Shown here: piece by piece, positions 1 through 54,603 of the stretch
Numbering within the stretch: the first letter of the stretch is position 1
Layout of the letters: the number at the start of each line of letters is the position of its first letter
DNA from: an uncultured bacterium
GTDB taxonomy: Bacteria > Eisenbacteria > RBG-16-71-46 > CAIMUX01 > WJJG01
NCBI GenBank assembly: GCA_964612295.1
Contig: CAZTDY010000006.1
Location: 35,546 to 99,545 of the forward strand
Length of the DNA: 64,000 bases
Direction: 5' to 3'
Program-made: the position numbers and the translations under genes
The notes under the pieces: model-generated
What the model was told of the DNA's origin: nothing
The model's database searches: none
Seen by the model: only the letters and a program-made list of their open reading frames with translations

Positions 1-163
1 TCTTTTTCGTGACCGCGACCACTCCTTTGAGTGTTGAAGAGACCCTCGCCGCCGCGCGGAGCTTAGCTCGCGACCTGGGCGAGGCCCAGACGATGCTCCT
101 CGATCTCCCCGAGTCCTATGAGCAGAGCACCTTTCTGGTCCGCAAGAAGGAGTCCATCCGATG
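1..163 (+). CDS. hypothetical protein, 3' end only (partial at window edge)
   Basis: Open frame from window start ends at TGA 161-163, overlapping the next ATG (ATGA coupling). No recognisable motifs. Confidence 0.3.
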
Positions 164-32000: not shown

Positions 32001-35000
32001 CTACTGGATCACCATGACCTTCCGGGCCTCATTCACCTCGCCGGCCTTGAACCGGTAGAAGTAGATTCCCGTCCCCAGCTCGGTTGCGTTCAATGTTGCC
32101 GAGTGCGTCCCGGCGGCATACTGCCCCCGGGCCAGGATCGCGACGCGCTTGCCCGCCACGTTGAAGACATCCAGGCGCACATCTGCCGCCTCTGGCAGGT
32201 TGAAGAAGATCGTGCGCGTGCTGGGCGACCAGCTCGAGCGCACCTCCGACCCGCTGAACGCCAGGCGGCCGAGCGGGCCGTCTCGACCTTCGACGGGGCC
32301 GCTCTCGCAGGCGATCGTGACCACGTTCGCTCCCGGATCGTAGGTGTGCGTTGCGTGCGTGACGTCGGTGACCTCGAAGCACCATTCGCCCACCGGGTTG
32401 CGCACCTTGTCAGTTGTTACGGAGATCGACCCGTCCGTGCCAGTGATCCCGCTCGCGGTGCCTGCAGAGGGACCCGTGAAACTCAACGAGACGGTCGCAC
32501 CCGACAGCGGCGCGCTCGCCTGATCCACGATCCAGACCGTGCAGGTCCCCTTGTAGCCGTTGCCGACCCGCCGGCGGCCGGCCGTCATGTCATCGACATG
32601 CATCGTGTTGTTGCCGGCCTCCAGCACGGTGATGTATCCCGTCTTGGTCTCATCATCCGATCCGTAGGCGTTGGTGGCCGTCAAGGTTACCGTGTAGGTG
32701 CCGGGCGCGTCATACTGGTGGCTGGGACTCTGCGCAGAGGAGGTGCCCCCATCGCCAAACGTCCAGCTCCAGGCAGTCGGCGCGCCGCTCGAGAGATCGC
32801 TGAACTGCACGACGAGCGGCGCGTAGCCGGACGTCGGCACACCCTCGAAGTTCGCCACCGGCGGCACCGGTCCGCTGATCGACTCGATCGCCAGGTAGTC
32901 GATGTAGATGCTGTCGAGTGACTGCAGCTTTCTTGTGTGATCGCTGTCAACCACCCGGATGTACACCGTGCCGCTCACCGAAGCAGGCATGCTGACCGTA
33001 TAGAGCTGCTCGGTTGCGCTGGCAACGGTCACCAGGTCGGTGAAGCTGCTCCCATCGGTCGAGTAGGCGAAGGTGAAATCATCGCCGTCGGAGTTCGACG
33101 GACGGTAGGCCTCGACATAGAAGGTGACCGAACTTCCGCCGCCCACCGTGAAGCTCCACTGATGCTCGAGCATGCTGTACCACTTGCGCGGGTGGGTCTG
33201 TGAGGAGACCTCGGTGATCACCTCATAGCCATTGTTGCTGGTGTGGGTGTCAAGGTAGGACCCGCTGACCGTTCCAGCCACCGGGATATCCGCCTCGGCC
33301 ACCGCGACTGGCGGTGCGGGATCCACCTGAATGTAGCCGGTTCTGGTCATCGCGTCGGAGCCGCAGGCGTTCGCCACGGCCAGGGTGACCGTGTAGTCGC
33401 CTTCGCCCGTGTAGGTGTGACTCGGGTTCTGGGCCGAAGAGGTGCCGCCGTCCCCGAAGGTCCAGCTCCAACTGTCGGCGCCGGTCGAGAGGTCGGTGAA
33501 ATCAACTATGAGGGGAGCCGTTCCCGTGGTCGGCGAACCGGAGAAGTCCGCCACCGGTGCCACGCACGGATCCACCGTGATGTAGTCCGTCTTTGTTTCG
33601 GTATCCGATCCTCCGGGGCCGGTCACCGTCAGGCTGACCGTATAGGTTCCCGCCGCAGTGTATTGGTGGGATGGATTCTGCGCACTCGAAGTGCCGCCAT
33701 CCCCGAACGTCCAGCTCCACGTGTCGATGCTGCCGGTGGACAGATCCGTGAAATCGACGGTCAGCGGCTCGGTCCCCGAGGTGGGTGTGCCGGAGAAATC
33801 CGCGACCGGTGGTGGGGGAGGCCCCGTATTGACCGCGTTGTAGGAGTTGATGCGGCCCGCGCCCATCTTCCCGAGGTAGGTCGATGGGAGATAGGCGTCG
33901 ATGTCGTCGGCGCTCGTGTAGAGCTGGTCTTCGACCTGTGAGGCGCTCCAACCGGGGTTCTGCGACCAGATCAGCGCGCCCACGCCGGCCGCCATCGGGG
34001 TGGCCATGGAGGTGCCGTCCATCGAGGCCCAATAGGTCGTGTTCGGGTCGGTGTGATCGTGATAGGTCGAGTAGATGCCCACGCCGGGTGCGCTGATATC
34101 GACCCAGGTGCCGTAGGTGGTGAAGCTGGCCGGGCTGTCGTCCACATCGACCGCCGCGACCGAGATGCAGTCCCCGCGGCCGTTCAAGTAGTCGGCCGTC
34201 TGGCTGCCGTCGTTGCCCGCGGCCACGAAGATCAGGCCACCGGAGTTGAGGAAATAGGTCGCAGCTGTGCCGATCCCGCCCGAGTTGGACGAGCCCCAGC
34301 TGCAGGAGGCGATCTTGGCGCCGTTGTTCGCAGCGTAGTAGAAGGCCTCGGCGGCGGCGTCCATCATGACGACGCCGTATTCTTGACCGAGGTAGTTGTA
34401 GGAATACCCCATCCGCAGCGCCATGATCTCGACGCCGTTTCCGTATTCGGCCTGGGGTCCGTTGTTCCAACCGCCCGCGACACCGGCCATGCCGTAGCCG
34501 TCGTTGGTGATCATGCCGAAGATACCGGCGGTGTGCGTGCCGTGGCCGTTGAAGTCACGGGGGTCGTTGTCCATGTCGTTACAGTCTTCGCCGCTCCAGC
34601 AGTTGCTGACGCCGTCGATGAAGTCGTAGCCGACCCAATCGTCGGTGTATCCGTTGCCGTCGTCATCTACGCCGGAGGAGCCATTCAGCTCCGCCGTGTT
34701 GATCCACATGTTTCCGCGGGATGCACCGGGATTCGAGACCGAGGCGTTCGAGCCGCCGAAGTCGGGGTGGTAGTACCGCGTTCCCGAGTCGAGAATCGCC
34801 ACGATGACCGACGAACTCCCGGTTTGGATGTCCCACGCCTCCGGAGAGTCGATATCGTGGTCGTCCGCCTGATGGTGATAGGTCTGGTAGGGGCTGAAGT
34901 AGGTGTCATTGGGGGTCGCGCGCATCGCGTGAATGCCGATCGGTTCCACGCTCTCCACGAAGGGATGGCGCGCATAGGCCGCCATGACGTCCTCGAGGAT

Positions 35001-35353
35001 ACCCGATTCGAATCGGACCTTGTGGAATCTCGCCAGGTTGGCCTCGGCCGGGTTCAGGCTGTTCTCGGAGCCGAGGAACTGCTGGCGAATGCGGGTGACG
35101 CGATACTGGTCCGACAACGCATCGAACGCGTCGTCGCCTATCTGAGCGATCGCATCCGCGGAGTAGAACACGCCCAGCTGCCCGACGTCCGGTTGACGTC
35201 CGGTTTCAACACCAGAACGAACTCATCCGGAACGTTCCCAAGGAACGATGGGATTCCCTCCGGGCGTTCGATCTGGATGATTTGATCTGCTGCTGAGGCT
35301 GCCGTGGAGACGGCGATCAGACCACACATGATTCCGATGACGAGCTTCTTCAT
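32001..35353 (-). CDS. subtilisin-like serine protease (S8) with PKD repeats and T9SS C-terminal sorting domain, reading frame interrupted by 11-bp tandem duplication
   Basis: Catalytic triad motifs VAILDSGT, NGHGTHTAGI, GTSMATPMAAGV. Three WSWTFGDGGTSSAQ PKD repeats. CTD ...GIYFYRFKAGEVNEARKVMVIQ. Signal peptide MKKLVIGIMCGLIAVSTAASA is encoded in another frame (35138-35353). Removing one copy of GACGTCCGGTT restores a single ORF. Confidence 0.75.
35184..35205. repeat. exact 11-bp tandem duplication (GACGTCCGGTT x2) inside S8 protease gene
   Basis: Direct reading of sequence. 11 nt is not a multiple of 3, so the duplication shifts the frame between signal peptide and propeptide. Confidence 0.85.
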
Positions 35354-38063: not shown

Positions 38064-40511
38064 CTACTTGACCAGCAAGAACTTCTCGGTGGCGATCCTT
38101 TTCGCCGACAGGAGCCGCACGAAATAGACTCCCGGGGCAACTTGCACACCGTTTTCGCCCTGCGCATCCCAGGCGACCTGATGGGTCCCCGCCGCTTTCA
38201 CGCCCTCGAACAACGTGGCCACGCGGCGTCCCTGTGCATCGTGGACGGTCAAGCGGATGTCCCGCGGGACCGACAGCGCAAAGGTGAAGTGAGCGGTGCG
38301 GGAGCTCGGGTTGGGACCATCCAAGGCCAGGCTGAGCACCGAACGCCCCGCGGTCGTCTCCCGATCGATGTCCGAGTAGTCGACCGATTGCACGCCGCTG
38401 GCGACCAGGGCATACGGCGCATCGAGCATGATCGTTTCCGGCTCGGCATCCTGAACCAGCTCGTCCGCCCGAACCTCGATCGTCCACTCCCCGGGCTCGG
38501 GATTCTGCACGAAGACACATTCGACGGTGTTCTTCGTGTCGGCCGCGCCGTCCGGCGTGGACCAGACGCCCACTGAGAGGCCTTCGTTCCCGTAGTAGAC
38601 CGTCTCCGACGGAGAGATGACCCGCAGGGTAAGATCGTTGATCCGGTGCTGGCTTTGAACCGCCGGGTTTCCTGGCAGATCGGGATAGGTCATCGTCACC
38701 TTGAGCGCGGGCTCATTCTCCTCGACCAACACCGTGTGCTCTCGAACATCGAAGGGCTGCAGCAGATCCTCCTGATCGACCACATAGAACTTCTCGCGCA
38801 GGTCGTACATGTTCTGCAGATCCGGGAGCCCCCAACCCTGATGCATACGGGTCTTGTCATGGGTCGTCCCGGTGAAGTCGTACTGGAGCGCCGTATTGAC
38901 CATCATGGCCTTCGCGGTCGCACTGTGGGGCCGGTTGTCGAAGACGGTGCCCTCGGGATCGACCTCGTTCCCGAAGATGCCTTCGGCCCACATCTGATGG
39001 AAGAGCCCCACATGCCCGGCGATGATGGGCGTGGCGCCACTCGTCCCGCCGAAGTAGGGGGTATAGGACTCGTAGCCGCAGCAATCGACCGTGTAGGTCT
39101 GATCGTAGGCGTGACACAGCGTCGGCTTGATGCGTCCGTCCGACGCCGGTCCGATGCTGGCGCCGTAGCACCAGCAATCATCGGCGAGGTCCGCGGTGCC
39201 GTAGTGGTAGATGCCGCCTCCGGAGATGATGTTCTTGGCCCAGGCTTGAGGGCGCGAGTCCTGGTCTCCCGCGTTGCTCTGCGATTGGCAGTGAACGAGG
39301 TCGGAGTCGAACAGCATCGCATCGGTGTCGGCGGAGACGGTCGTGTAGTTGTACGTGCGCGGGCTCCCCACGCTCGATGTCTGGAAGACAGCGTTGTAGG
39401 GCTCCTGCAAGAGCTCCATCGAGTTCAGGTAGCGGTTGTGCCCTTCGATACTGATGTAGTGGTAATCGGCCACAATGCCCTGTCCGTCCGGGAGCAACCC
39501 TCGGGCGATCGCCAGACCGGCGCCATCCCCGAAGCAGATGCCCGAGGTCGCCGCGCCATGGTCGTCAGCGGTCGTGTAGCTGTGTTGGATCAGCGGCCGG
39601 GACTCGAAGTCGTGATGACCGATATTGAAGCCCGCATCGAACGACTCGCCCCTCACGCCGGCGCCCGTGTATCCTGCCACGGTTTCGATGTAGTCCGCCC
39701 CACTCATCGTTCGGATGATATTCATGTCGTGCTCGTAGGGTCCCCAGCGGTCGGCGAAGAGCACTTCGTCCCAGTGTGCTACGTCGAAGAGCTGGTCGGG
39801 GGTGAGCGTGGCCCGCACGAGGAACTTGCCGGCATCGGCGCTCTCGACCTGATAGCCGCGAAGCGCGAGGCGATCGGCGACCTCAAGTTTCTGCGCCTCG
39901 GTCAGGACCTGGACGTTGTAGGTGTCGCGCGGATAGATCTGCTCCGCCTGCTCCAGATTCTCGATCAGAAACGCTTCCAACCGGTAGGCCGGGTGATAGG
40001 GGCCGACCCACCGCACGTAGGGCAGTTCATCGACGGCCCCTCTCGTCTCCGCGTCCATCTCGACGAGATAGGCGTACTGCGCGATGTAGTGACGGACCTC
40101 GCCCCCGAGGGCCGCGATCTGATCCGCGTATTGGACGAGGGGAGGGGTCACGAATTGGACAATGAAGAGCTGGCCGGATTCGTCCGCCGCGAGCCGGGGG
40201 TGCATTGGGAGTTCGCCATCCAGTGGATCAAAGGCCCCGTAGCCGAGGCCGAGTTCGTAGGTCGCCTGGGATTGACGATCCACCCGGTCATCGCCGAAGG
40301 ACAGGCGATAGAAGTGCGCCTGGGCTCCGTTCGCGTCCGCTTCCTGCCACAAGGTGACGAGGGTGGAAGAACCCGGAATCTGAATCGTCTCCGCGCGCGG
40401 ATTGGTACCTATCTCGGGTGCCGCAGATGCCGAATGCGCTCCCGTGCAGATCAGGGCGGTTACGATTGCGATCACCGTGAAAGTCAGCTTGCAGAAGTGC
40501 TTGTGTCCCAT
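38064..40511 (-). CDS. subtilisin-like serine protease (S8) with T9SS C-terminal sorting domain
   Basis: Signal peptide. HGAATSGI and GTSGATPIIAGHVGL S8 motifs. CTD ...APGVYFVRLLSAKRIATEKFLLVK. Confidence 0.8.
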   Translation of the reverse strand: MGHKHFCKLTFTVIAIVTALICTGAHSASAAPEIGTNPRAETIQIPGSSTLVTLWQEADANGAQAHFYRLSFGDDRVDRQSQATYELGLGYGAFDPLDGELPMHPRLAADESGQLFIVQFVTPPLVQYADQIAALGGEVRHYIAQYAYLVEMDAETRGAVDELPYVRWVGPYHPAYRLEAFLIENLEQAEQIYPRDTYNVQVLTEAQKLEVADRLALRGYQVESADAGKFLVRATLTPDQLFDVAHWDEVLFADRWGPYEHDMNIIRTMSGADYIETVAGYTGAGVRGESFDAGFNIGHHDFESRPLIQHSYTTADDHGAATSGICFGDGAGLAIARGLLPDGQGIVADYHYISIEGHNRYLNSMELLQEPYNAVFQTSSVGSPRTYNYTTVSADTDAMLFDSDLVHCQSQSNAGDQDSRPQAWAKNIISGGGIYHYGTADLADDCWCYGASIGPASDGRIKPTLCHAYDQTYTVDCCGYESYTPYFGGTSGATPIIAGHVGLFHQMWAEGIFGNEVDPEGTVFDNRPHSATAKAMMVNTALQYDFTGTTHDKTRMHQGWGLPDLQNMYDLREKFYVVDQEDLLQPFDVREHTVLVEENEPALKVTMTYPDLPGNPAVQSQHRINDLTLRVISPSETVYYGNEGLSVGVWSTPDGAADTKNTVECVFVQNPEPGEWTIEVRADELVQDAEPETIMLDAPYALVASGVQSVDYSDIDRETTAGRSVLSLALDGPNPSSRTAHFTFALSVPRDIRLTVHDAQGRRVATLFEGVKAAGTHQVAWDAQGENGVQVAPGVYFVRLLSAKRIATEKFLLVK

Positions 40512-45251: not shown

Positions 45252-45418
45252 TCCGAAATACAATCCCGCGACCTCCACTTTTCAGACTCCCCGGGAAACG
45301 TTTGCCTTTCGCCGAACGACTCACCCTGTGAGACGTGTTTCGGCATCCCCCTGCCATACGTAAAGAGCGCACGACAGACGAACCGCCCGTTTTCGACCGG
45401 GGAGAGCGAGGTGATCCC

Positions 45419-48106
45419 ATGATCCGCAAACGCACCCTTGGCCACCTGTGGTTGCTGTGCATCTCCGTCTGTCTCCCGGGGATCGCCGCCGGGCAGGAGG
45501 CGGAACCGATCACCGCGGGCCGCATCGTCGGCAGGGTGATGGATCTGGAGTACGGCCAACCGATCGCACTCGCCCACATTCTCGTTCGAGACCAGAACTG
45601 GGGTACGATGTCGCTCGATGACGGCACCTTCAAGATCGGGGGCCTTCCCCCCGGGCGATACGCCCTGATCGTCGAGATGATGGGCTACCGGCGTCACCTC
45701 GAACCGGGTGTCGACGTCGTCGCCTCCGGGGACACCCGGCTGGAAATCGGGCTCGTGAGTGAGATCGTCGGCGTGACCGAGGTCATCGTCGTCCGTCCGG
45801 AGGCAGGGAAACTGGATGGCACCAAAGCCGAGGTCGTCCAGGAAATCGGAGAGCCTGAGCTCGAGGACATGCTCCCCGATGATCCCACCGAGTTGATCGC
45901 ACAGCAGACCGGGATCATCCTCCACCGCGGAGAGCTGATCGCTCATGGCGCCCGGCCGGGGGACGTGATGCGTATGATCGACGGTGTTCCGGTTCGAAAC
46001 CCGACGGGGGGCGTGGCGCTCTCGCTGGCTTCGCAATCGTTGTCCTCGGCCCGCACGATCCTGGGCGCAATGGGGGCCAACATCGGAAACGCCCAGGCCG
46101 GTGTGATCATGTATGACACCAAGGAGGGATCGGACGTCTTTCAGGGAGAGCTTCGCTACACGACCGATGACTACGGGTCACCGAGCAACACCTACGACAA
46201 TTACGATCGCATCTTCGCGTCCGTGGGCGGGCCGACGTCCGTGACGAACCTGACCTACTACCTGTCCGCGGAACTCACGTTTGCCGATGATCACCCCAAG
46301 ACCGCCGAGAGGCGGACGCGTAACAGGATCCTCAACTTCATCAGTCTGCACGATCGGAAGACCAATAGCTCGCGTCTGCAGGGCAAACTGGCCTTTCGTC
46401 CATCGGTCAACACGAAGATGACCTACGAGGTCGTCCATCAGGACAGCCGCCGGGATGAGTACCACCATGCCTGGAGCCGCGAAGGCTATGTCCAGACCTT
46501 TCTGGATACCACCCGCACGGGCCAGGTTGTGTTACGCAACGGCCGGTGGTCGCAAACGGCGCTCGACTCGACCTATCGCTACTACAATGCGGCCGAGCAC
46601 ACCCCGAACACGCGAGACCAGTTCGACATTCACAAGCTGGTGATCCGCAATACGCTGGGGGACGACTCCTTCTGGAGCGCTCGCTTCAGCCGCCAACACT
46701 TCCTCGACGACCGCCGGGTGCGGGGGAAGCAGGCCTGGGAGTACGAGGGCGATCGAGAGCAGGACTATTGGTTCAACTACTCCGACGGATCGTCCTACGA
46801 CTACTTCGTGATCTCCGGCGACTACCCCTACCTCGGCACGCGGGAATCGGTGGTCTATACGGGGGCCTTTGACCTGACCTATCTGCGCGGGGCCCATCAG
46901 CTCGAGACGGGAGCCTCCCTGCAGTACAACGACATGCGCGTGAGGGAGATCTGGCGGCCGTATCTGACGGACACCGAGGGGGCGATCGGACAACCCAACA
47001 CCAACTATCACTACTACAATCCGGAAGGGTCCCTCTATCTTCAGGACCACTGGAAGTTTGAAGACATGACCGTGCAGGCCGGCCTGCGTTACGACTTCTT
47101 CAGCGTTGGGGAGCAGGTGTCGAACTCCGACGTGCGGTCGAGGATCAAACACCAGATCAGTCCTCGGGTGGGGATGGTCTACCCGATCTCGGATCGCGAC
47201 GTCTTCAGCTTCTTCTACGGGCGCTACTATCAGGTTCCCAGTCGGCAGTATCTGTATGACAATCTGGATTCCTACGATGATGCGCGGGGGAATCCCAATC
47301 TCACCAACGAAACCACGATCAGTTATCAGGCCGCGATTCTGCATAGCTTCTCGAAGATCCTCACGAGCCAGTTCAGCATCTACTACCGAGACATCTATGG
47401 ACTCATCGCCGCGGAGGCAACGCCCGACTGGACCTCCACGGGGGACATCTGGACTTTCGAGAACAAGGACTACGCCTCCGCGAAGGGGTTCGAGGTCAGC
47501 CTGGCGCGTTCGTACCATCAGAGCCACTGGTGGCGGCTGGCCTACACCTGCGGTGTGGCGACCGGCGTCGCATCGGACCCCAGCGCGGCCCTCTCGCAGG
47601 ATCTCATCTACCTTCCCACCGGCGAGATCCCGCTCAACTGGGATATCCGGCACAGCATCGGCGCGAGCGTCTACGTGGGAGATCGCACGACGTGGGGGAT
47701 GAGCTTGAGCTGGAGTTACTCCAGCGGAGCGCCCTATACGCCATTGGAGCGCGATACCCGCGAGACCGAACCCGAGAAGGAGAATTCCCGGCGCCTGCCG
47801 TCGACCAGCGCGCTCGACCTCCGCGCAGACAAGCACTATGAACTGTGGGGCCGGCGATTCTCGCTCTTCGTGCAGGGTAGAAATATCCTCGACGCTCGGA
47901 ACATCACCTATCTGACCCCCAGCAACCGGCCCGATCCTCCTTCGCATGTCGACTATCGGGTCTACTACACTGAGACCGGCCGGGCGGGGGGCGCCTACCT
48001 GAGAGACCTCGACGGTGATGGCCTGGAGGAGTTCGTGCCCCTGGCCGACCCCCGGGTGTTCGGTGCGCCGCGCACCGTCCGCATCGGGGTAAGCTATCGG
48101 ATCTAA
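45419..48106 (+). CDS. TonB-dependent outer-membrane receptor (carboxypeptidase-regulatory-like N-domain + plug + beta-barrel)
   Basis: Signal peptide. GRIVGRVMDLEYGQPIALAHILV CarbopepD_reg-like domain. Plug-like region. About 900 aa with C-terminal aromatic-rich terminus. Confidence 0.6.
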   Translation: MIRKRTLGHLWLLCISVCLPGIAAGQEAEPITAGRIVGRVMDLEYGQPIALAHILVRDQNWGTMSLDDGTFKIGGLPPGRYALIVEMMGYRRHLEPGVDVVASGDTRLEIGLVSEIVGVTEVIVVRPEAGKLDGTKAEVVQEIGEPELEDMLPDDPTELIAQQTGIILHRGELIAHGARPGDVMRMIDGVPVRNPTGGVALSLASQSLSSARTILGAMGANIGNAQAGVIMYDTKEGSDVFQGELRYTTDDYGSPSNTYDNYDRIFASVGGPTSVTNLTYYLSAELTFADDHPKTAERRTRNRILNFISLHDRKTNSSRLQGKLAFRPSVNTKMTYEVVHQDSRRDEYHHAWSREGYVQTFLDTTRTGQVVLRNGRWSQTALDSTYRYYNAAEHTPNTRDQFDIHKLVIRNTLGDDSFWSARFSRQHFLDDRRVRGKQAWEYEGDREQDYWFNYSDGSSYDYFVISGDYPYLGTRESVVYTGAFDLTYLRGAHQLETGASLQYNDMRVREIWRPYLTDTEGAIGQPNTNYHYYNPEGSLYLQDHWKFEDMTVQAGLRYDFFSVGEQVSNSDVRSRIKHQISPRVGMVYPISDRDVFSFFYGRYYQVPSRQYLYDNLDSYDDARGNPNLTNETTISYQAAILHSFSKILTSQFSIYYRDIYGLIAAEATPDWTSTGDIWTFENKDYASAKGFEVSLARSYHQSHWWRLAYTCGVATGVASDPSAALSQDLIYLPTGEIPLNWDIRHSIGASVYVGDRTTWGMSLSWSYSSGAPYTPLERDTRETEPEKENSRRLPSTSALDLRADKHYELWGRRFSLFVQGRNILDARNITYLTPSNRPDPPSHVDYRVYYTETGRAGGAYLRDLDGDGLEEFVPLADPRVFGAPRTVRIGVSYRI

Positions 48107-48193: not shown

Positions 48194-49324
48194 ATGGCCG
48201 AGGACGCGCACAGACCGGATTGGGCCGCCTTGCATCACGCGGTTCTTTTTGGCGACTCGGGGGACCGGATCATCTGGCAACCTCGCATCCTGTGCTGGTT
48301 TGAGGATCGTCAATTCTCGGGTCAGGGGCTTCCCGAACCATATGCCGGCCTCTCGCTCCCGGACCTCTTCCGCAAACTGGGAGTTTCGGCACGCCTCTAC
48401 GAGTACAACATGTGCTTCGAACGAGCTGAGCATCCGGCCGTTCAGGTGCGCACCCGCTCCTTGAACGAGACCGACACCGAACACACGATCGACACTCCGG
48501 CCGGCCAGCAGGTCGCCATCACGCGGCGGACCTCCACCAGCCCTCATCCGATCACCTTGAAGTGGGAGGTGGTGACCAAGGATGAACTGCACGTTGCGAC
48601 CTGGCGCGAGGAGCACGCCAGCTGGTCGTGGAACCAGGACAGGTTCGATCAGCTACAGCAGGAACTCGGTGACCTGGGCGCTCCGACGATGTTCATGCCC
48701 CGCATGAACGTGCAGAGTCTCTACATCGAGAAGATGGGGGTCGAAGGAGGGATCACCGCGATCTACGAGTGGCCCACGGAGGTTGACACCTACTTCCGAG
48801 CGCTGGAGGAAAGCCACGACCGTCTGATCGATGTGATCAACCCCTGTCCGATCCGGGCCATCAACTTCGGTGAGAATGTACACGCCGGCACGCTCTCACC
48901 CGATCTCTTCAAGCTCTACCATCTGCCGGCCTGCCGGCGGCGGTGCGAACGTCTGCATCAGGCCGGGAAGTTCTGCTCATCTCATTGGGACGGTGATACC
49001 CGGTCCTTGCTGGCCTACATCAGGGAGAGCGGCCTCGACGGCGTGGAAGCGATCACGCCCGAACCGCAGGGCGATGTCACCCTCGAGGAGGTTCGCGAAG
49101 CCTTCGGGGATGACCAGGTTCTCTTGGATGGGATTCCGGCCGTCTACTTCGACGATGTCTATCCAGTGGACACCCTGATAGACTGCGCGCAACGGGTGAT
49201 CGACCTGTTCGCGCCGCGGCTCGTGCTTGGTATCTCCGATGAGATTTCATCGAGCGGCGACATCGAACGCATCCGGCGGGTGGGTGAGATCGTGGATCGC
49301 TTCAACGCCCAGGCGCACGCTTGA
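48194..49324 (+). CDS. URO-D family protein, candidate corrinoid:acceptor methyltransferase
   Basis: URO-D-like C-terminal half (LLDGIPAVYFDD...LVLGISDEI). Immediately followed by a B12-binding corrinoid protein gene. Confidence 0.5.
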   Translation: MAEDAHRPDWAALHHAVLFGDSGDRIIWQPRILCWFEDRQFSGQGLPEPYAGLSLPDLFRKLGVSARLYEYNMCFERAEHPAVQVRTRSLNETDTEHTIDTPAGQQVAITRRTSTSPHPITLKWEVVTKDELHVATWREEHASWSWNQDRFDQLQQELGDLGAPTMFMPRMNVQSLYIEKMGVEGGITAIYEWPTEVDTYFRALEESHDRLIDVINPCPIRAINFGENVHAGTLSPDLFKLYHLPACRRRCERLHQAGKFCSSHWDGDTRSLLAYIRESGLDGVEAITPEPQGDVTLEEVREAFGDDQVLLDGIPAVYFDDVYPVDTLIDCAQRVIDLFAPRLVLGISDEISSSGDIERIRRVGEIVDRFNAQAHA

Positions 49325-49337
49325 GGGTGAGGAACCC

Positions 49338-50021
49338 ATGGAAGAACTGCTGAAGAGGCTGGCCGACTGCATCGAATCCGGGAAGGTGGATCGCGAGTCC
49401 CGCTATCCGCCGGCGATGGCGGGGGAGGATGGCGCACGGGAGCTGACCGCCCGGGCCCTGGAGGAGGGTGTTCGGGCGGAGGACCTGCTCAATCGTTCCC
49501 TCCTCGTTGGCATGCACCGCATTGGGGAACGCTTCGGCCGGGGGGAAGTGTACGTTCCGGAAATCCTCTTCTCGGCCAAGGCGATGACTGCGGCCATGGA
49601 ATTCCTCAAGCCCTACTTCGACAGCGGGGAAGCGCAGTATCGCGGGACCGCCATCCTGGGTACTGTGGCCGGTGATCTGCATGACATCGGCAAGAATATC
49701 GTGCGGATGGTGCTAGAAGGCGGAGGATGGCGGGTCATCGATCTGGGAGTGGATGCGTCCGCGGACGCGTTTCTGGAGGCCCTGGAGGAGCACCCCGATG
49801 GCATCGTGGGGATGAGCGCCTTGCTCACGACCACGATGGTCAACATGGCGGATGCGGTTTCGAAGATCAAGGAACGGAATGCCGCGACGCGGGTCTACGT
49901 GGGAGGCGCACCGGTGACTGAACCGTTTTGCGTCAAGATCGGAGCGGATGGGTACTTCCCGGACCCGCACGGTCTGGTTCAGCACCTCTCGAGTGTCGGG
50001 GAGGGGCCGCCTTCCGGCTAG
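49338..50021 (+). CDS. cobalamin-binding corrinoid protein (MtaC/MtbC-like, B12-binding cap + Rossmann domain)
   Basis: DxHxxG B12 lower-ligand motif GDLHDIGKNIV. GxGxxG-like VIDLGVD. RBS GAGGGTGAGG. Confidence 0.75.
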   Translation: MEELLKRLADCIESGKVDRESRYPPAMAGEDGARELTARALEEGVRAEDLLNRSLLVGMHRIGERFGRGEVYVPEILFSAKAMTAAMEFLKPYFDSGEAQYRGTAILGTVAGDLHDIGKNIVRMVLEGGGWRVIDLGVDASADAFLEALEEHPDGIVGMSALLTTTMVNMADAVSKIKERNAATRVYVGGAPVTEPFCVKIGADGYFPDPHGLVQHLSSVGEGPPSG

Positions 50022-50398: not shown

Positions 50399-51897
50399 CT
50401 ACGCTCCTTTTGCGATCCTCGTGTCCAGAATTCGACGCACGACGCGGGCGAGAGTCCGCATCTCAATGGGTTTCTCCAGATAGTCCGCCACCCCGATCTC
50501 CAAGGCCTTCTCCCGCGGGAGAGTGCCGCTGTAGCCCGTGCAGAGAACGATTGGCGTTTCCGCCCGCACGGCCAGGAGGTGTTGGGCCAACTCATCGCCT
50601 GACATGTTCGGCATGGTCAGGTCGGCGATCACGATGTCGTAGGTCTCCGGATTGGCCTCGAACGCGGCCAGTGCTTCGCGGCTGTTGGTGTAGGTCGTGA
50701 CCTGATAGCCGAGACGAGCCAGACTCATGCTCCCAACACGGGTGATGGCCTCCTCGTCATCGATCAATAGAATGTGTTCATTACCTTGGATGTGTGCCTG
50801 GGCGCCGATTTCCGGTTCGGACTTCTCACTTTCCTCCGTCGCAAGCGGGAGATAGATGTTGAATCGGGTGCCCTCACCGATCGCGGTCTCCACGAAGACC
50901 ATCCCCCCCATCGAGGCGATGATGCTGTGGACCGTCGCCAGTCCCATCCCGGTTCCCTCACCGACCTTCTTGGTCGTGAAATAGGGTTCGAAGGCCCGGC
51001 TCTTGACGTCGTCGTTCATTCCCACGCCGGTGTCCTGGATGCTGAGCTGGACGTATTCCCCGGCGTCCAGACCGAGGAATTGCTCTGCTTCCACATCCGT
51101 GAGATGGGCGTTCCTCAGGGAGACGGTCAGTGCCCCGTATGAGTTACGCATGGCGTGGAAGGCATTCGCGCAGAGGTTCATGACAACCTGATGGATCTGG
51201 GTGGGATCGGCTTTCACCAGACCCGTGTCCTCGTCGATGTCCCGTCGCAGGTCGATCGTCGCGGGAAGGGAGTTGCGCATGAAGTCGAGTGCTTCGTTGA
51301 CGACTGTCCCCAATCCCATCGGAGCACGTTCGACCTTCCCCGGGTGGCTGAAGGCGAGGATCTGACTGACGAGACTGGTTGCTCGCTGGCCGGCGGCCTT
51401 GATCCCGTTCAGGCACTCGTGAACCGGGCTGTCGGGAGCGATGGCGTCGGCCGCCAGTTCGGTGTAGCCCAAGATGGCATACAGCATGTTGTTGAAGTCA
51501 TGGGCGATGCCCCCGGCCAACGTGCCGATGGCTTCCATCTTCTGCGACTGACGCAGCTGGGTTTCCATCTGCACCAGATCAGATACGTCGCGCATCAGGA
51601 TGACGACGTTGGTGAAGCGACCCTGCTCGTCACGCACCGGCGAAACGGTTGTGTCGGACTTGTAGTCGGAGCCATCCTTGCGTTGACCGGTCAGACGGCC
51701 TTTCCAGGTTTCGCTCCGGCCGATCGCGTTCTCGATCTCGGGCCGGCCTGTCCCTCACCCTCCTGCAGGAGATCCTTGAAATGCTTCCCCTGCACCTCCT
51801 CATGCCCGAAGCCGGTGATCCTCTCCAAGGCGGGATTGGCGTACTGAATCACCAGCTCGGCATCGGTCATGACCAAGCCTTCGTCCGACTGCCGCAT
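50399..51897 (-). CDS. hybrid sensor histidine kinase (PAS + HisKA + HATPase + receiver), frameshifted within PAS domain
   Basis: H-box GGIAHDFNNML, HATPase G-boxes, C-terminal receiver. PAS N-half (VIQYANPALERITGFGHEEVQGKHF) lies in the 51691-51897 frame and PAS C-half (ETWKGRLTGQRKDGSDY...) in the 50399 frame. Junction is in GGCCGGCC run about 51741-51750. Confidence 0.6.
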
Positions 51898-51966
51898 GGC
51901 CGTGACCAGGCGATTCGATTCCTCTTCCGTTCGAGTGGCCCAGATCACCTGCGAGGTTGTCGCCTG

Positions 51967-54603
51967 ATGCTGGTGGCGCTCGGCCTGCTCGTCGCGCTCC
52001 TCTTGCCACCGGACGCTCACGGCCGCAACCCGATCCGCCGCGAGTTCTTCGACATCTATCCGGCGGCCGAGGGCACTCAGCTCGACGACCTGCCGAGCAA
52101 CGCGGGCCACTGCGGCGTGTGTCACTTCGACTTCGACGGAGGGGGGCCCCGCAACCCGTACGGACTGGCGATCGAGGTGGGTCTCAGCGGGGGGCTGACG
52201 GATACCGAAGCGATCCTGGCGATCGAGAACGAGGATACCGACAACGACGGCTTCAGCAACTACACGGAAGCCACCGACGTGAGTACCTTCAGAAACACGC
52301 CAACCTTCCCCGGGCTGTCCGCCACGAATTACGGTGGGATCGTGAACATTCCGGGGATTGAGGTCGAACCCTATCTGACCCCCTCGGACAGTTCGGACAC
52401 CACACCGCCCGTAGTCACGGTTCACAGTCCCGACGGTGGGGAGGTCGCAGCGGCCGAGAGCTACTTCCCGATCAGCTTCACCGCGACCGACGAGAGCGGC
52501 ATTGCCTACCTGGACATCTATCTGTCCGAGGACGGCGGCAACGAGTCCCATCCCGTTGCTTCGAGCGTACCCCCCGGAGGCGGCTACTCCTGGTTCGTGC
52601 CCAACCGACCGGGAACCGAGAACCGCATTCTGGTGGAGGCCCACGACAACGCCGGCAACGAAGGCGAGGACGCCAGCAACGCGGATTTCGAGATCACGCC
52701 CACGCCGGCCGGTTATGTCCCCAGCACGCTGCGGGACATGGAACTCTCCGGGACTCAGCCGCACGAGGGAGCCATCTTGGAGGATCCCGATGTCCACTGT
52801 GCGAGTTGCCACGGGAACTACTCCGAGGAGCACGAGGCGTGGTTCAATTGGCGCGGAAGTATGATGGGGCAGGCGGCGCGGGATCCGTTCTTCTTTGCCT
52901 GCATGGCGATCGCCGAGCAGGATGCGCCCTCCGTGGGCGATCTGTGCATCCGTTGTCACACCCAGGGCGCCTGGCAGGAGGGGCGTTCCGTTGATACCAG
53001 CGGAGGTCTCCTGAATGTCATCGATCGTCACGGTGTGCAGTGCGACTTCTGCCACCGCGTCGTCGACCATAATTACGTGCCGGGCGTGAGCCCGATCCAG
53101 GACGAGGACGTTCTCGATGATGTTTCACCACTGCCGCTTCAGTACGGAAACGGGCAGTTCATCAATGATCCTACGCCCCTACGTCGCGGACCCTACGACG
53201 ACGCAGAGGCGAGCCATGCCACCGTCGGCTCGCCCGTCCACCGTTCCGCCAACATCTGCGGCATCTGCCACGACGTGAGCAACCCGGTATTCATCCAGGT
53301 GAGCCCGGGAGACTACGTGCCCAACGCATTTGATGAAGAACACCCTGACATGGATGTTCGCAACATGTTCCCCGTCGAGCGGACGTTCAGCGAATGGAGC
53401 CAGAGCGAGTATGCGACCACCGGCGTGTATGCACCTCAGTTTGCGGGCGCCAAGGTCGACGGAATCGTCTCAACATGTCAGGACTGCCACATGCGCGATG
53501 TGGTTGGACGAGGGTGCAGCGAAGCGGGCACGCCCCTGCGAGACGATCTTGCCCTGCACGATTTTGCCGGCGGCAACACCTTCGTACCGGACATCATTGA
53601 AGATTTCTTCCCGGATGAGGTAGATGCCGCCCAACTGGCTGCCGCCAAGGCCCGCGCCCTCGGGATGCTGGAACTGGCCGCCACGGTGGAGGTTACGCCG
53701 GAGGACTTCGGGCTGACGGTTCGGGTCACCAATGAGACTGGACACAAGCTCCCTTCGGGTTATCCGGAGGGCAGGCGGGTTTGGATCAATGTGGCTGCCT
53801 ACGATGAAGCCCAGCAGCTCGTGTTCGAATCCGGGGCCTATGATCTCGATACCGGCGTGCTGACCCGCGACGATCAGGCCAAGATCTATGAGATTCACCC
53901 GGGTCTCAGTCCGGGACTCGCCGCCGCCCTGGGGCTCGAGCCGGGGTGGTCCTTCCACTTTGTGCTCAGCGACACAGTGTACTCGGACAATCGGATTCCG
54001 CCCCGCGGGTCAACCCTTGCGGGTCTCAGCGATGTTCAGTCCCCGGTCGTGGATCATGACTACGTCGATGGCCAGCACTGGGACGACACGGCCTATACGC
54101 TTCCGATCGAGGCGGTGAGCGCCACCGTGACCCTCTATTACCAGAGCACGAGCAAGGAATACATCGAGTTCCTCCGCGATGAGAACACGACAAACTCCTG
54201 GGGGCAGGATCTCTACGATGCCTGGGTCACCCAGGGCAAGTCCCCTCCCGTGGTGATTGCCCAGGTCGTCACCGACGTCACCGTCGAGCCCGGCGCAGTT
54301 GACGAAGGACCGCAGACCCGGACGCTCTCCTTTGGGCTCGAACCCGGCAAGCCGAGCCCCTTCACGAGCCGCACATCGATCGAGTATGCGGTGCCGGAGG
54401 CCCAGACGGTGGAGCTCGGGATCTACGATCTCAGCGGCCGCCTGGTGCGCACGCTCACCTCGGGCCACCAGCCGGCGGGGCAGCACACGGCCTACTGGGA
54501 TGGCTCGGATCGGAACGGTGATCGGGTCGCATCAGGAATCTACTTCGTGCGCTACGCAGCCGGTGATCTCGTGGCGGAGCGAAAGCTGATCCTGCTGGAA
54601 TAG
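51967..54603 (+). CDS. multiheme (6 x CxxCH) c-type cytochrome with T9SS C-terminal sorting domain
   Basis: Signal peptide MLVALGLLVALLLPPDAHG. Heme motifs CGVCH, CASCH, CIRCH, CDFCH, CGICH, CQDCH. DTDNDGFSNY Ca-binding-like motif. CTD ...GIYFVRYAAGDLVAERKLILLE. Confidence 0.75.
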   Translation: MLVALGLLVALLLPPDAHGRNPIRREFFDIYPAAEGTQLDDLPSNAGHCGVCHFDFDGGGPRNPYGLAIEVGLSGGLTDTEAILAIENEDTDNDGFSNYTEATDVSTFRNTPTFPGLSATNYGGIVNIPGIEVEPYLTPSDSSDTTPPVVTVHSPDGGEVAAAESYFPISFTATDESGIAYLDIYLSEDGGNESHPVASSVPPGGGYSWFVPNRPGTENRILVEAHDNAGNEGEDASNADFEITPTPAGYVPSTLRDMELSGTQPHEGAILEDPDVHCASCHGNYSEEHEAWFNWRGSMMGQAARDPFFFACMAIAEQDAPSVGDLCIRCHTQGAWQEGRSVDTSGGLLNVIDRHGVQCDFCHRVVDHNYVPGVSPIQDEDVLDDVSPLPLQYGNGQFINDPTPLRRGPYDDAEASHATVGSPVHRSANICGICHDVSNPVFIQVSPGDYVPNAFDEEHPDMDVRNMFPVERTFSEWSQSEYATTGVYAPQFAGAKVDGIVSTCQDCHMRDVVGRGCSEAGTPLRDDLALHDFAGGNTFVPDIIEDFFPDEVDAAQLAAAKARALGMLELAATVEVTPEDFGLTVRVTNETGHKLPSGYPEGRRVWINVAAYDEAQQLVFESGAYDLDTGVLTRDDQAKIYEIHPGLSPGLAAALGLEPGWSFHFVLSDTVYSDNRIPPRGSTLAGLSDVQSPVVDHDYVDGQHWDDTAYTLPIEAVSATVTLYYQSTSKEYIEFLRDENTTNSWGQDLYDAWVTQGKSPPVVIAQVVTDVTVEPGAVDEGPQTRTLSFGLEPGKPSPFTSRTSIEYAVPEAQTVELGIYDLSGRLVRTLTSGHQPAGQHTAYWDGSDRNGDRVASGIYFVRYAAGDLVAERKLILLE

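What the first reader, a model, noticed from the sequence alone, without database searches (positions are those of the whole stretch)
51967..54603. Hexaheme c-type cytochrome carrying a T9SS C-terminal sorting signal
Six canonical CxxCH heme-binding motifs are spread over an ~880-aa secreted protein. It ends in the same ~80-aa CTD found on the two S8 proteases and the Trx-like protein in this window. c-type cytochromes mature in the periplasm. A T9SS tail implies export of a folded holo-cytochrome to the cell surface (T9SS cargo are typically surface-anchored). That points to extracellular electron transfer in a lineage not known for it.
Basis: partly seen in the sequence, partly recalled or inferred. 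Interest (0 to 1): 0.65.

Follow-up and report, generated by a model that had tools for sequence, protein, structure and literature searches.

The report
Secreted six-heme cytochrome with T9SS tail
This gene encodes a six-heme electron-carrying protein whose tail is the address label that one group of bacteria uses to push folded proteins onto the cell surface, so these uncultured bacteria may exchange electrons with their surroundings by a route nobody has described.

Summary
Window 51967-54603(+) encodes an 878-aa protein with a signal peptide and six CxxCH motifs (0.007 expected by chance). All six are invariant in homologs. The last ~83 aa pass the T9SS type-A sorting model TIGR04183, as do three other secreted proteins in the window.

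The body has two parts. The N-terminal part is a monoheme, Ca-binding and Ig module. [quoted passage not shown] It is not a MccSep enzyme: Tyr599 replaces the catalytic selenocysteine and the heme-ligating Cys is absent.

The family is large and conserved (61-85% identity across Eisenbacteria, Krumholzibacteriota and Latescibacterota). The gene stands alone, with no conserved neighbours. [quoted passage not shown] This argues for an extracellular location.

T9SS machinery was shown only in relatives: a PorU-like peptidase on the same contig as a homolog, and a PorV-family gene beside one elsewhere. How electrons reach the protein, and its substrate, are unknown. No paper linking T9SS to multiheme cytochromes was found. 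I rate it a new variant of known kinds.

The parts
51967..54603 (+). Whole gene: 878-aa secreted hexaheme c-type cytochrome plus stop codon
   Evidence: ORF and motif count; identical JGI gene call P0001; AF2 full-length model with pLDDT 86.9 and pTM 0.73
51967..52023 (+). Signal peptide (aa 1-19, MLVALGLLVALLLPPDAHG)
   Evidence: Hydrophobic helix aa 2-12 followed by low-confidence residues 14-17 in the AF2 model. This region is 19% identical among homologs while all keep a hydrophobic N-terminus. Judged by eye, no predictor run.
52024..52404 (+). N-terminal monoheme module (aa 20-146) with an invariant H-C-G-V-C-H site (aa 48-53, nt 52108-52125) and a TSP3-like Ca-binding DxDxDG loop (aa 90-103, nt 52234-52275)
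   Evidence: Invariant H48, C49, C52 and H53; weak Pfam TSP3_bac and NCBIfam diheme_GEGP hits. The module is present in FCB and PVC full-length homologs and absent from Zixibacteria-type core-only relatives.
52405..52701 (+). Ig-like beta-sandwich (aa 147-245, Big_7-like)
   Evidence: Weak Pfam Big_7 hit; eight beta strands at pLDDT 90-96
52702..53676 (+). Pentaheme, mostly helical cap (aa 246-570). CxxCH at aa 278, 327, 359, 431 and 504 (nt 52798-52812, 52945-52959, 53041-53055, 53257-53271, 53476-53490)
   Evidence: Motifs are invariant in 82 sequences. Profile hit to PDB 5ze8 at E=3.9e-8. Foldseek match of the core model to 5ze8 at E=3.9e-14, TM 0.66. This is the most conserved region, 75% identity.
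53677..54291 (+). Ig-like beta-sandwich 'stem' (aa 571-775) carrying the invariant loop T-N-E-T-G-H-K-L-P-S-G-Y-P-E-G-R-R-V-W (loop aa 592-606, nt 53740-53784)
   Evidence: The loop aligns with the MccSep loop TNHAGHSIPDG-U-PTPNR, placing Tyr599 at the Sec325 position. NCBIfam ExtKL hit over aa 501-622 at E=6.7e-7. H593, G598, R603 and W606 are invariant in all alignments.
54292..54351 (+). Flexible linker (aa 776-795)
   Evidence: pLDDT below 50 at aa 780-787; 25% identity among homologs
54352..54600 (+). T9SS type-A C-terminal sorting domain (aa 796-878), with ...PSPF..., ...SGIYFVRY... and ...RKLILLE at the end
   Evidence: TIGR04183 at 26.7 and 31.9 bits, cutoff 23; beta strands at pLDDT 88-95; 43% identity against 70-75% for the body; always terminal in 30 other proteins of related genomes

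Best explanation
The gene encodes a cell-surface or extracellular hexaheme c-type cytochrome that is exported by the type IX secretion system. The inferred path has four steps.

(1) The Sec system exports the protein using its N-terminal signal peptide.

(2) Six hemes are attached covalently in the periplasm, and the protein folds into four domains: a monoheme/Ca-binding module, an Ig domain, a five-heme helical cap, and an Ig-like stem. An invariant GH..P.GYP..RR loop of the stem reaches back to the cap.

(3) The T9SS translocon recognises the C-terminal beta-sandwich. A PorU-type C25 peptidase removes the tail, and the holo-cytochrome is left attached to the cell surface or released.

(4) Outside the cell it acts mainly as an electron-transfer module. 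Five well-conserved non-motif histidines could complete bis-His ligation of the five core hemes. It would pass electrons between the cell and extracellular acceptors or donors such as metal oxides, sulfur species, humics or a redox enzyme.

Shown here: heme motif count and conservation, domain architecture, fold family, sorting-domain model match, and the phyletic pattern of the tail. Inferred: actual secretion, surface anchoring, heme ligation, direction of electron flow, and substrate.
For: Six invariant CxxCH motifs. The core is a c552/ExtKL-type pentaheme fold.

The tail passes TIGR04183. It also sits on three other secreted proteins of the window: an S8+PKD protease, a weakly S8-like protein, and a thioredoxin-fold (Trx-like) protein. 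In ~1.25 Mb of related genomes the same tail occurs on 30 other proteins, nearly always within 0-2 aa of the C-terminus. The annotated carriers are hydrolases such as S8, C25 and C1 peptidases and a CARDB protein.

The tail is preceded by a disordered linker and evolves much faster than the body, 43% against 70-75% identity.

Tail swapping follows lineage. The CTD is present in 9/9 Eisenbacteria, 14/15 Krumholzibacteriota, 2/3 Latescibacterota and 21/22 unlabelled MAGs. It is present in 0/11 Planctomycetota, Verrucomicrobiota and Pontiella homologs, which carry dockerin-like or other tails.

The core-only branch of the family is likewise fused to extracellular-type modules: PKD, FN3, cadherin-like, dockerin and TSP3. 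It includes a T9SS-tailed member named from Rhodothermales.

A conserved ~1230-aa C25 peptidase with the same CTD, whose best NCBIfam hit is PorU, exists in Eisenbacteria. It lies 1 kb and 21 kb from cytochrome homologs on two contigs. In another relative it shares a strand and a 12-kb stretch with a PorV/PorQ-family gene that scores 161.6 bits against a cutoff of 90.

From established knowledge, not tested here: T9SS cargo cross the inner membrane by Sec and are translocated folded, and Shewanella exports holo-MtrC/OmcA by T2SS.
Against: No T9SS core gene (GldK/L/M/N, SprA, PorV, PorU) was found in the window, and the rest of this genome could not be searched.

Pfam's T9SS model is below threshold (19.7 against 27). 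The tail scores higher on FlgD_ig and resembles solved FlgD Ig domains at 27-32% identity.

To my knowledge T9SS function has not been demonstrated experimentally in these candidate phyla.

No outer-membrane conduit, porin-cytochrome or partner cytochrome is conserved next to the gene in 71 loci, so the route of electrons to a surface protein is unexplained.

The characterised relative MccSep is periplasmic (bioRxiv 10.1101/2025.11.18.688581). T. tepidum c552 is, to my knowledge, a soluble protein; its paper could not be read.

Heme ligands could not be read from the model because no coordinates are returned.
Confidence: 0.6

Rival explanations
1. It is a periplasmic redox protein. The C-terminal domain would then be just another Ig-like (FlgD-like) fold with no sorting role, and the protein would work in the periplasm as MccSep does.
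For: MccSep is periplasmic (bioRxiv 10.1101/2025.11.18.688581). The tail scores best on FlgD_ig and fails Pfam PF18962. T9SS machinery was not shown for this genome.
Against: The tail passes TIGR04183. It is always terminal and follows a disordered linker. It is shared with secreted proteases. It diverges faster than the body. Exactly in PVC lineages it is replaced by dockerin-type or other tails. Other branches of the family carry PKD, FN3, cadherin and dockerin modules, which are typical of extracellular proteins.
Confidence: 0.12
2. It is an extracellular redox enzyme rather than a passive conduit. One core heme, next to the invariant Tyr599/Arg603/Arg604 loop, would be the catalytic site. 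The enzyme would act on a small extracellular substrate such as polysulfide or S0, another oxyanion, or peroxide. The other hemes would feed or drain electrons.
For: The homologous loop of MccSep carries the catalytic Sec, which projects to the distal side of heme 2. Our loop is invariant (G-H-K-L-P-S-G-Y-P-E-G-R-R-x-W) across 82 sequences. The body is very highly conserved across phylum-level lineages, 70-75%. This fits an enzyme or a tightly constrained interface. Two invariant Arg residues could bind an anion.
Against: Both defining catalytic residues of MccSep are missing: Sec325 is Tyr, and the Cys239 region has no Cys. T. tepidum c552 has Ala at this loop position, so the loop can be purely structural. 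Five conserved non-motif His (H417, H425, H531, H593, H664) are enough to give all five core hemes bis-His ligation. An extracellular enzyme would still need an electron route, and none was found.
Confidence: 0.2
3. It is a subunit of an extracellular cytochrome filament ('nanowire'), polymerising after secretion. The invariant His48 next to the first heme motif would ligate a heme of the neighbouring subunit.
For: The cable-bacteria paper reports that T. tepidum c552 and the PHC family have been linked to the archaeal nanowire AvECN (PMC11976967, citing Baquero et al. 2023). The H-C-x-x-C-H site is invariant and its distal ligand is unassigned.
Against: The protein is large and has four globular domains plus an anchor-type tail. 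No filament-specific feature was tested, no multimer model could be made, and MccSep is a closed tetramer rather than a filament.
Confidence: 0.05

Closest known systems
Pentaheme cytochrome c552 of Thermochromatium tepidum (PDB 5ze8), within the 'PHC' family named in PMC11976967 (ExtKL, Gsu2801, cable-bacteria sPHC/lPHC)
   Same: Both have five CxxCH motifs in a helical cap followed by an Ig-like beta-sandwich. Both have the N-x-x-x-H-x-x-P-[ST]-G-x-P...R loop. 5ze8 is the only significant PDB fold match (Foldseek E=3.9e-14, TM 0.66 on the target; profile E=3.9e-8).
   Different: Identity is 15%, and the core here is about 520 aa against 385. This protein adds a sixth heme in an N-terminal module, an extra Ig domain and a T9SS tail. 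c552 has Ala where this protein has Tyr599. To my knowledge c552 is a soluble protein of unknown function.
MccSep / ExtKL of Geobacter sulfurreducens (PDB 9wt8; NCBIfam NF040886), a periplasmic polysulfide-reducing selenoenzyme
   Same: Same overall plan of a five-heme cap plus an Ig-like stem. The last heme motif aligns (CQECHM against CQDCHM), and so does the stem loop (TNHAGHSIPDG-U-P against TNETGHKLPSG-Y-P).
   Different: Sec325 is replaced by Tyr599. There is no Cys at the heme-ligating Cys239 position. The NF040886 score is 28 bits against a cutoff of 250. MccSep is periplasmic and tetrameric. This protein has a sorting tail and extra domains.
MtrC/OmcA/MtrF outer-membrane decaheme cytochromes of Shewanella
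   Same: The proposed role is the same: a multiheme holo-cytochrome matured in the periplasm, exported folded by a dedicated secretion system, and displayed on the cell surface with Ig-like/beta domains next to the heme domains.
   Different: It is not homologous at family level: PF22113 scores 19.8 bits, below its cutoff of 30. It has six hemes, not ten. It has no lipoprotein signal. MtrC uses T2SS and is encoded next to MtrA/MtrB, whereas this gene has no conserved neighbours.
T9SS type-A cargo of Bacteroidota (for example gingipains, and chitinase ChiA of Flavobacterium johnsoniae)
   Same: Both have a Sec signal peptide, a functional body, a flexible linker and an ~80-aa C-terminal beta-sandwich that matches TIGR04183. 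Related genomes encode a PorU-like C25 peptidase and a PorV-family protein.
   Different: The cargo here is a multiheme cytochrome. I found no report of such cargo. The tail is the FlgD_ig-like variant common in candidate FCB phyla, and to my knowledge T9SS function is untested in those lineages.

Membership tests
T9SS type-A cargo | C-terminal domain matches TIGR04183 at or above its curated cutoff | tested here: met
   26.7 bits in the whole protein and 31.9 bits as an isolated tail; cutoff 23
T9SS type-A cargo | C-terminal domain matches Pfam PF18962 (Por_Secre_tail) at or above its gathering score | tested here: not met
   19.7 bits against 27. Many homologs do carry a precomputed PF18962 hit.
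T9SS type-A cargo | The domain is the very last element, a small beta-sandwich behind a flexible linker | tested here: met
   AF2 shows strands between aa 803 and 876 at pLDDT 88-95 and a linker at aa 780-787 with pLDDT below 50. The same domain ends mostly 0-2 aa from the C-terminus in 30 other proteins.
T9SS type-A cargo | N-terminal Sec signal peptide | tested here: inconclusive
   There is a hydrophobic N-terminus with an A-H-G|R site, and homologs have typical signal peptides. No signal-peptide predictor was available, and the n-region lacks a basic residue.
T9SS type-A cargo | T9SS core machinery (SprA, PorV, PorU, GldK/L/M/N) encoded in the same genome | not testable with these tools
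   Only 64 kb of this genome was available, and none of these genes is in it. Partial evidence comes from relatives: a PorU-like C25 peptidase on the same contig as a homolog, and a PorV/PorQ-family gene at 161.6 bits against a cutoff of 90 near a PorU-like gene.
T9SS type-A cargo | T9SS-dependent secretion with tail cleavage | not testable with these tools
   This needs an experiment.
PHC superfamily (T. tepidum c552 / ExtKL / Gsu2801) | Five c-type heme motifs in a helical cap followed by an Ig-like beta-sandwich | tested here: met
   AF2 core model with pLDDT 86.2 and pTM 0.89. Foldseek match to 5ze8 at E=3.9e-14 and probability 1.00, the only hit with E at or below 0.001.
PHC superfamily (T. 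tepidum c552 / ExtKL / Gsu2801) | Conserved stem loop N-x-x-G/P-H-x-x-P-x-G-x-P...R | tested here: met
   Alignments to 5ze8 and 9wt8; the loop is invariant in the family
MccSep selenoenzyme family | Sec or Cys at the position of U325 | tested here: not met
   Tyr599 aligns with U325. The position is Tyr in 82/82 close relatives. In 42 distant relatives it is Tyr 36, His 3, Phe 2 and Met 1.
MccSep selenoenzyme family | Cys ligand of heme 2 (C239) | tested here: not met
   C239 lies 4 residues before the YASYLW segment, which aligns with Y488. That region of this protein (Y-A-T-T-G-V-Y) has no Cys. The only other free Cys are C312, which is subfamily-specific, and C517, which is variable.
MccSep selenoenzyme family | NCBIfam NF040886 at or above its cutoff | tested here: not met
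   28.2 bits against 250
MtrC/OmcA/MtrF outer-membrane cytochromes | Pfam PF22113 domain at or above the gathering score, and a ten-heme architecture | tested here: not met
   19.8 bits against 30; six hemes
FlgD flagellar hook cap | FlgD equivalog models at or above their cutoffs, with an N-terminal FlgD domain | tested here: not met
   Only the Ig-like domain matches. NCBIfam FlgD models score 16-42 bits against cutoffs of 230-383. The rest of the protein is a cytochrome.

The most novel reading that the evidence does not exclude
The type IX secretion system is an unrecognised export route for multiheme holo-cytochromes. Through it, a whole set of uncultured FCB-affiliated phyla (Eisenbacteria, Krumholzibacteriota, Latescibacterota, Zixibacteria and some Rhodothermales) would display a c552-type heme module on the cell surface and exchange electrons with extracellular substrates. 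This would be a mode of extracellular electron transfer that is mechanistically distinct from the T2SS/porin-cytochrome systems of Shewanella and Geobacter. PVC bacteria would display the same module through dockerin-type or other anchors.
Probability: 0.35. Interest if true: 0.8.

Novelty: new variant of a known kind. Interest (0 to 1): 0.6.

Why it matters
Known extracellular multiheme cytochromes of Gram-negative bacteria reach the surface by type II secretion and sit on a porin-cytochrome conduit. A six-heme protein with a T9SS sorting tail would add a different export route.

The family is conserved at 61-85% identity across several candidate phyla. At least 581 relatives were confirmed among GTDB species genomes, although only the best 80 were examined for tails. 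These abundant uncultured sediment and soil bacteria are usually described as polymer and peptide degraders. The finding would place them among organisms able to exchange electrons with minerals, sulfur or humics.

It would also give the c552/ExtKL pentaheme family, whose only characterised member is a periplasmic enzyme, a large extracellular branch. The idea is directly testable in a genetically tractable T9SS host. At present the family is annotated only as 'T9SS type A sorting domain-containing protein', 'cytochrome c553' or 'hypothetical'.

Tried and rejected
1. Full-length Foldseek search of the PDB. The hits were dominated by Ig-like domains (S-layer proteins, FlgD, PorU, FN3) and said nothing about the heme core. 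I re-ran it with a core-only model.

3. Conserved synteny. All-against-all BLAST of 864 ORFs from 83 loci found no neighbour shared by more than 4 loci. Guilt by association therefore gives nothing. I rejected any role for the adjacent ZnuABC/Fur genes and the PAS kinase, because they are not conserved next to homologs.

4. Search for T9SS core genes in the fetched DNA. An FGE-sulfatase (GldK-like) motif scan found nothing. tblastn with a PorV-family protein and with the PorU-like protein found nothing in the window. The 2782-aa ORF in L013 is not SprA; it is another CTD cargo. The ORFs next to the PorU-like gene in L005 and L084 are not PorV.

5. MccSep-type enzyme: rejected on both catalytic residues.

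6. MtrC-like assignment: rejected.

7. Literature. Five searches combining T9SS terms with multiheme, cytochrome or EET terms gave no relevant paper. The T. tepidum c552 paper is not held.

8. NCBI taxonomy does not place Eiseniibacteriota in the FCB group. FCB affiliation rests on PMC9769843 and my own knowledge of GTDB.
Full report
**1. Observation**

Window 51967-54603 (+) is an intact ORF of 878 codons. It has an ATG start with a GAGG 12-15 nt upstream. A JGI gene call (P0001) is identical over the full length.

The protein has six CxxCH motifs, at aa 49, 278, 327, 359, 431 and 504. Its composition predicts 0.007 such motifs. Twelve of its 14 cysteines lie in these motifs. In 24 full-length homologs at 61-85% identity all six motifs are invariant.

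The N-terminus (MLVALGLLVALLLPPDAHG|RNP) looks like a Sec signal peptide. No predictor was available.

The last ~83 aa hit TIGR04183 (T9SS type-A sorting domain) above its cutoff of 23: 26.7 bits in the whole protein and 31.9 bits as an isolated tail. They also hit Pfam FlgD_ig at 50 bits (cutoff 27). They fall below Pfam's own T9SS model, at 19.7 bits against 27.

The tails of 26168-28021(+), 32001-35171(-; S8 + PKD) and 38064-40511(-; weak S8) score 30.7, 35.3 and 34.1 bits on TIGR04183. They align with the cytochrome tail at 29-33% identity, with the usual PNPF / GxYF / K..L(I/V)x pattern.

**2. What the protein is**

A full-length AlphaFold2 model (pLDDT 86.9, pTM 0.73) and the alignments give this layout:

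| Region (aa) | Feature |
|---|---|
| 1-19 | Signal peptide |
| 20-146 | N-terminal module with one heme (invariant H-C-G-V-C-H) and a TSP3-like DxDxDG loop |
| 147-245 | Ig-like domain |
| 246-570 | Mostly helical cap with five hemes |
| 571-775 | Ig-like beta-sandwich with the invariant loop TNETGHKLPSGYPEGRRVW |
| 776-795 | Disordered linker (pLDDT below 50 at aa 780-787) |
| 796-878 | Terminal beta-sandwich |

An exhaustive search of 1.84 billion cluster representatives found 5134 relatives, 660 of them at E below 1e-30. It showed that aa ~250-770 form an independent module. In many proteins this module starts right behind a signal peptide.

A profile of the module hits one solved structure significantly: the pentaheme cytochrome c552 of Thermochromatium tepidum (5ze8, E=3.9e-8). 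The match covers both the first heme motifs and the stem loop. A core-only AF2 model (pLDDT 86.2, pTM 0.89) has 5ze8 as its only Foldseek hit with E at or below 0.001 (E=3.9e-14, probability 1.00, TM 0.66 on the target, 15% identity).

NCBIfam gives a weak ExtKL hit over aa 501-622 (E=6.7e-7). ExtKL is MccSep, recently solved as a tetrameric periplasmic polysulfide reductase. It has a five-heme cap and an Ig-like stem, a His/Cys-ligated heme 2, and a catalytic selenocysteine in a D-G-U-P loop of the stem (bioRxiv 10.1101/2025.11.18.688581).

The cable-bacteria paper PMC11976967 groups ExtKL, Gsu2801 and T. tepidum c552 into a 'PHC' family. It reports a proposed link to the archaeal nanowire AvECN. 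The core here belongs to that superfamily.

**3. It is not a MccSep-type enzyme**

The HMMER alignment puts TNETGHKLPSG-Y-PEGRR against TNHAGHSIPDG-U-PTPNR, so Tyr599 occupies the Sec325 position. The last heme motifs also align (CQDCHM against CQECHM).

The Cys239 position lies 4 residues before the segment that aligns with Y488. In this protein that region is Y-A-T-T-G-V-Y and has no cysteine. Of the two cysteines outside heme motifs, C312 is conserved only in the close subfamily, and C517 varies between C, A and S.

Five non-motif histidines are conserved across the wider family. H417, H531 and H593 are at 100%. H664 is at 90-100% and H425 at 81-97%. These are enough for bis-His ligation of all five core hemes. 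I therefore favour an electron-transfer role.

However, the loop around Tyr599, Arg603 and Arg604 is invariant in 82 sequences. A catalytic heme next to it cannot be excluded.

**4. Distribution and context**

More than 120 full-length homologs at 61% identity or above exist. Where a source names them, they are called 'T9SS type A sorting domain-containing protein', 'cytochrome c553' or 'hypothetical protein', from Ca. Eisenbacteria and Krumholzibacteriota.

The best 80 loci come from three groups:
- Eisenbacteria/Eiseniibacteriota, Krumholzibacteriia, Latescibacterota and MAGs labelled Gemmatimonadetes or Fibrobacteraceae;
- many unlabelled MAGs;
- PVC lineages: Planctomycetota, Puniceicoccaceae, Luteolibacter, Oceanipulchritudo and Pontiella.

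The window's own best matches are Eisenbacteria (68-69%). PMC9769843 treats Eisenbacteria and Krumholzibacteriota as FCB superphylum and predicts Cyc2 in them.

The source contig is JGI 3300007511 Ga0105000_1000162 (123.8 kb). Neighbours in the window are a divergent PAS/HisKA-receiver kinase upstream and ZnuABC plus Fur downstream. Clustering 864 ORFs from 83 loci found no neighbour shared by more than 4 loci. The gene stands alone, with no linked porin, partner cytochrome or maturation genes.

**5. Is the tail a sorting signal?**

Several independent observations say yes.

(a) A local HMM of the tail finds it on 59 of 73 family members and on 30 other proteins in ~1.25 Mb of related DNA. There it ends mostly 0-2 aa from the C-terminus. 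The carriers that were annotated are hydrolases: S8, C25 and C1 peptidases and a CARDB protein.

(b) Within the family, identity to the query differs by region:

| Region | Mean identity to query |
|---|---|
| Heme cap | 75% |
| Ig-like stem | 70% |
| N-terminal module | 67% |
| Tail (CTD) | 43% |
| Linker | 25% |

This is the pattern expected for a removable signal.

(c) The tail follows lineage:

| Lineage (as labelled) | Homologs with CTD |
|---|---|
| Eisenbacteria | 9/9 |
| Krumholzibacteriota | 14/15 |
| Latescibacterota | 2/3 |
| Other FCB-type or Omnitrophota labels | 4/4 |
| Unlabelled MAGs | 21/22 |
| PVC (Planctomycetota, Verrucomicrobiota, Pontiella) | 0/11 |

In PVC homologs the match stops at aa ~770. 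It is followed by dockerin-like repeats in Planctomycetota, or by other ~75-110-aa tails ending ...FMRLRV or ...RFYRIRR in Verrucomicrobiota and Pontiella.

(d) The core-only branch, with more than 7370 members, is fused to PKD or FN3 plus a T9SS tail in Zixibacteria and Rhodothermales. Elsewhere it is fused to cadherin-like, He_PIG, dockerin, HYR or TSP3 modules, and it includes a 'GC-type dockerin domain-anchored protein' from Planctomycetota. All of these are extracellular-type modules.

**6. T9SS machinery**

None is encoded in the 64-kb window. The rest of the genome could not be searched.

In the Eisenbacteria locus L005, 1 kb downstream of the cytochrome homolog, a 1294-aa protein has a C25 peptidase domain. 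Its best NCBIfam hit is the T9SS sortase PorU (79 bits, E=1.5e-22, profile positions 364-738; equivalog cutoff 420, not reached). It carries the same tail.

This ~1230-aa protein is a conserved family in Eisenbacteria. On JGI contig 3300040801 Ga0450804_4059058 it lies 21 kb from cytochrome homolog P0032.

In another relative (L087, GCA_029933125.1) the PorU-like gene is followed 7.6 kb downstream, on the same strand, by a 336-aa protein. That protein passes the PorV/PorQ family model at 161.6 bits against a cutoff of 90.

This supports a T9SS in the lineage. It does not prove one in this genome.

**7. Mechanism proposed**

The proposed sequence is as follows:
- Sec export.
- Periplasmic heme attachment and folding.
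- Recognition of the terminal beta-sandwich by the T9SS.
- Tail removal by the PorU-like peptidase.
- Surface attachment or release.
- Electron exchange with extracellular partners through a six-heme chain.

The first two steps and the folded-cargo property of T9SS rest on established knowledge. So does the precedent of T2SS-exported holo-MtrC. The rest is inference.

The main gap is how electrons cross the outer membrane, because no conduit is linked to the gene. The rivals are a periplasmic protein with a non-functional Ig tail (0.12), an extracellular enzyme with a catalytic heme by Tyr599 (0.2), and a filament subunit (0.05).

**8. Novelty**

Extracellular multiheme cytochromes, T9SS cargo and the c552/ExtKL fold are each known. 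Their combination was not found in five full-text searches. One activated-sludge survey predicts 'secreted multi-heme cytochromes' in Bacteroidota without mentioning T9SS (PMC11495043). NCBI already labels these proteins by their tail, so the sequence family is not new to databases. The biological reading is new. I rate it a new variant of a known kind, with interest 0.6.

Noticed in passing
window 26009-28021 (+): The 'Trx-like' T9SS-tailed protein probably starts at the ATG at 26009, with a signal peptide, and reads through an in-frame TGA at 26135-26137 inside a W-[TGA]-P-Y-C (UxxC) redox motif. With that codon read as Cys/Sec, the hit to NCBIfam 'Omp28-related selenoprotein' extends across the site and rises from 48.7 to 72.5 bits (cutoff 200, not reached). 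It may be a T9SS-secreted selenoprotein. The 60 nt downstream do not fold better than shuffles (z = 0.49), so no SECIS element was shown.
   Followed up: partly
window ~51637-51948 (-), directly upstream and divergent from the cytochrome gene: The PAS/HisKA/receiver hybrid kinase is split. The PAS domain begins in one frame (...GKHFKDLLQEG...) and continues in another (...WKGRLTGQRKDGSDYKSDTTVSPVRDEQGRF...) that runs into the 412-aa kinase ORF. The same split gene calls (85 aa + 412 aa) appear on contigs from different samples (L001, L002). It is therefore a frameshift present in the assemblies, either real or a recurrent error.
   Followed up: partly
L005 13697-17581 (+); also L084, L086, L087, L088, L090: There is a conserved ~1230-aa Eisenbacteria protein with Propeptide_C25 + Peptidase_C25 + (InhA-like MAM) + T9SS tail. 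Its best NCBIfam match is the sortase PorU. In L087 it sits in one same-strand stretch with a TonB-dependent-receptor-like protein, a 991-aa CTD protein and a PorV/PorQ-family protein.
   Followed up: partly
L067, L079, L083 (Verrucomicrobiota) and L069, L080 (Pontiella), last ~75-110 aa of the cytochrome homologs: PVC homologs end in unidentified C-terminal domains with conserved endings (...QFMRIRVEEL, ...FMRLRITPR, ...QFLRLKVE, ...RFYRIRR, ...RFYRIKR). These may be lineage-specific sorting or anchoring modules analogous to the T9SS tail.
   Followed up: no
L081 9293-15227; L032 13343-17269 (-); L043 2999-5887 (-): There are other multiheme genes near homologs. L081 has a tandem second copy (839 aa, 5 CxxCH, own CTD). 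L032 has a 1308-aa ORF with 19 CxxCH. L043 has adjacent 5-heme (514 aa) and 8-heme (443 aa) ORFs. None is conserved across loci.
   Followed up: no
window 161-2569 (+): This is an 802-aa secreted protein with an N-terminal caspase-like domain (Peptidase_C14; NCBIfam 'caspase, EACC1-associated type', 64 bits, below cutoff) and C-terminal LA_2272-type surface repeats. It ends in an aromatic residue, as outer-membrane proteins do.
   Followed up: no
window 48194-50021 (+): A URO-D-like protein (weak hit) is followed by a B12-binding two-domain protein. This looks like a corrinoid-dependent methyltransferase pair, sitting next to a TonB-dependent receptor (45335-48106).
   Followed up: no
window 1-25000: A long minus-strand run of ORFs with GC3 of 0.77-0.82 was not annotated here. 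One ORF in the gene map I built (15170-15976) has GC3 of 0.38 and is probably not a real gene in that frame.
   Followed up: no
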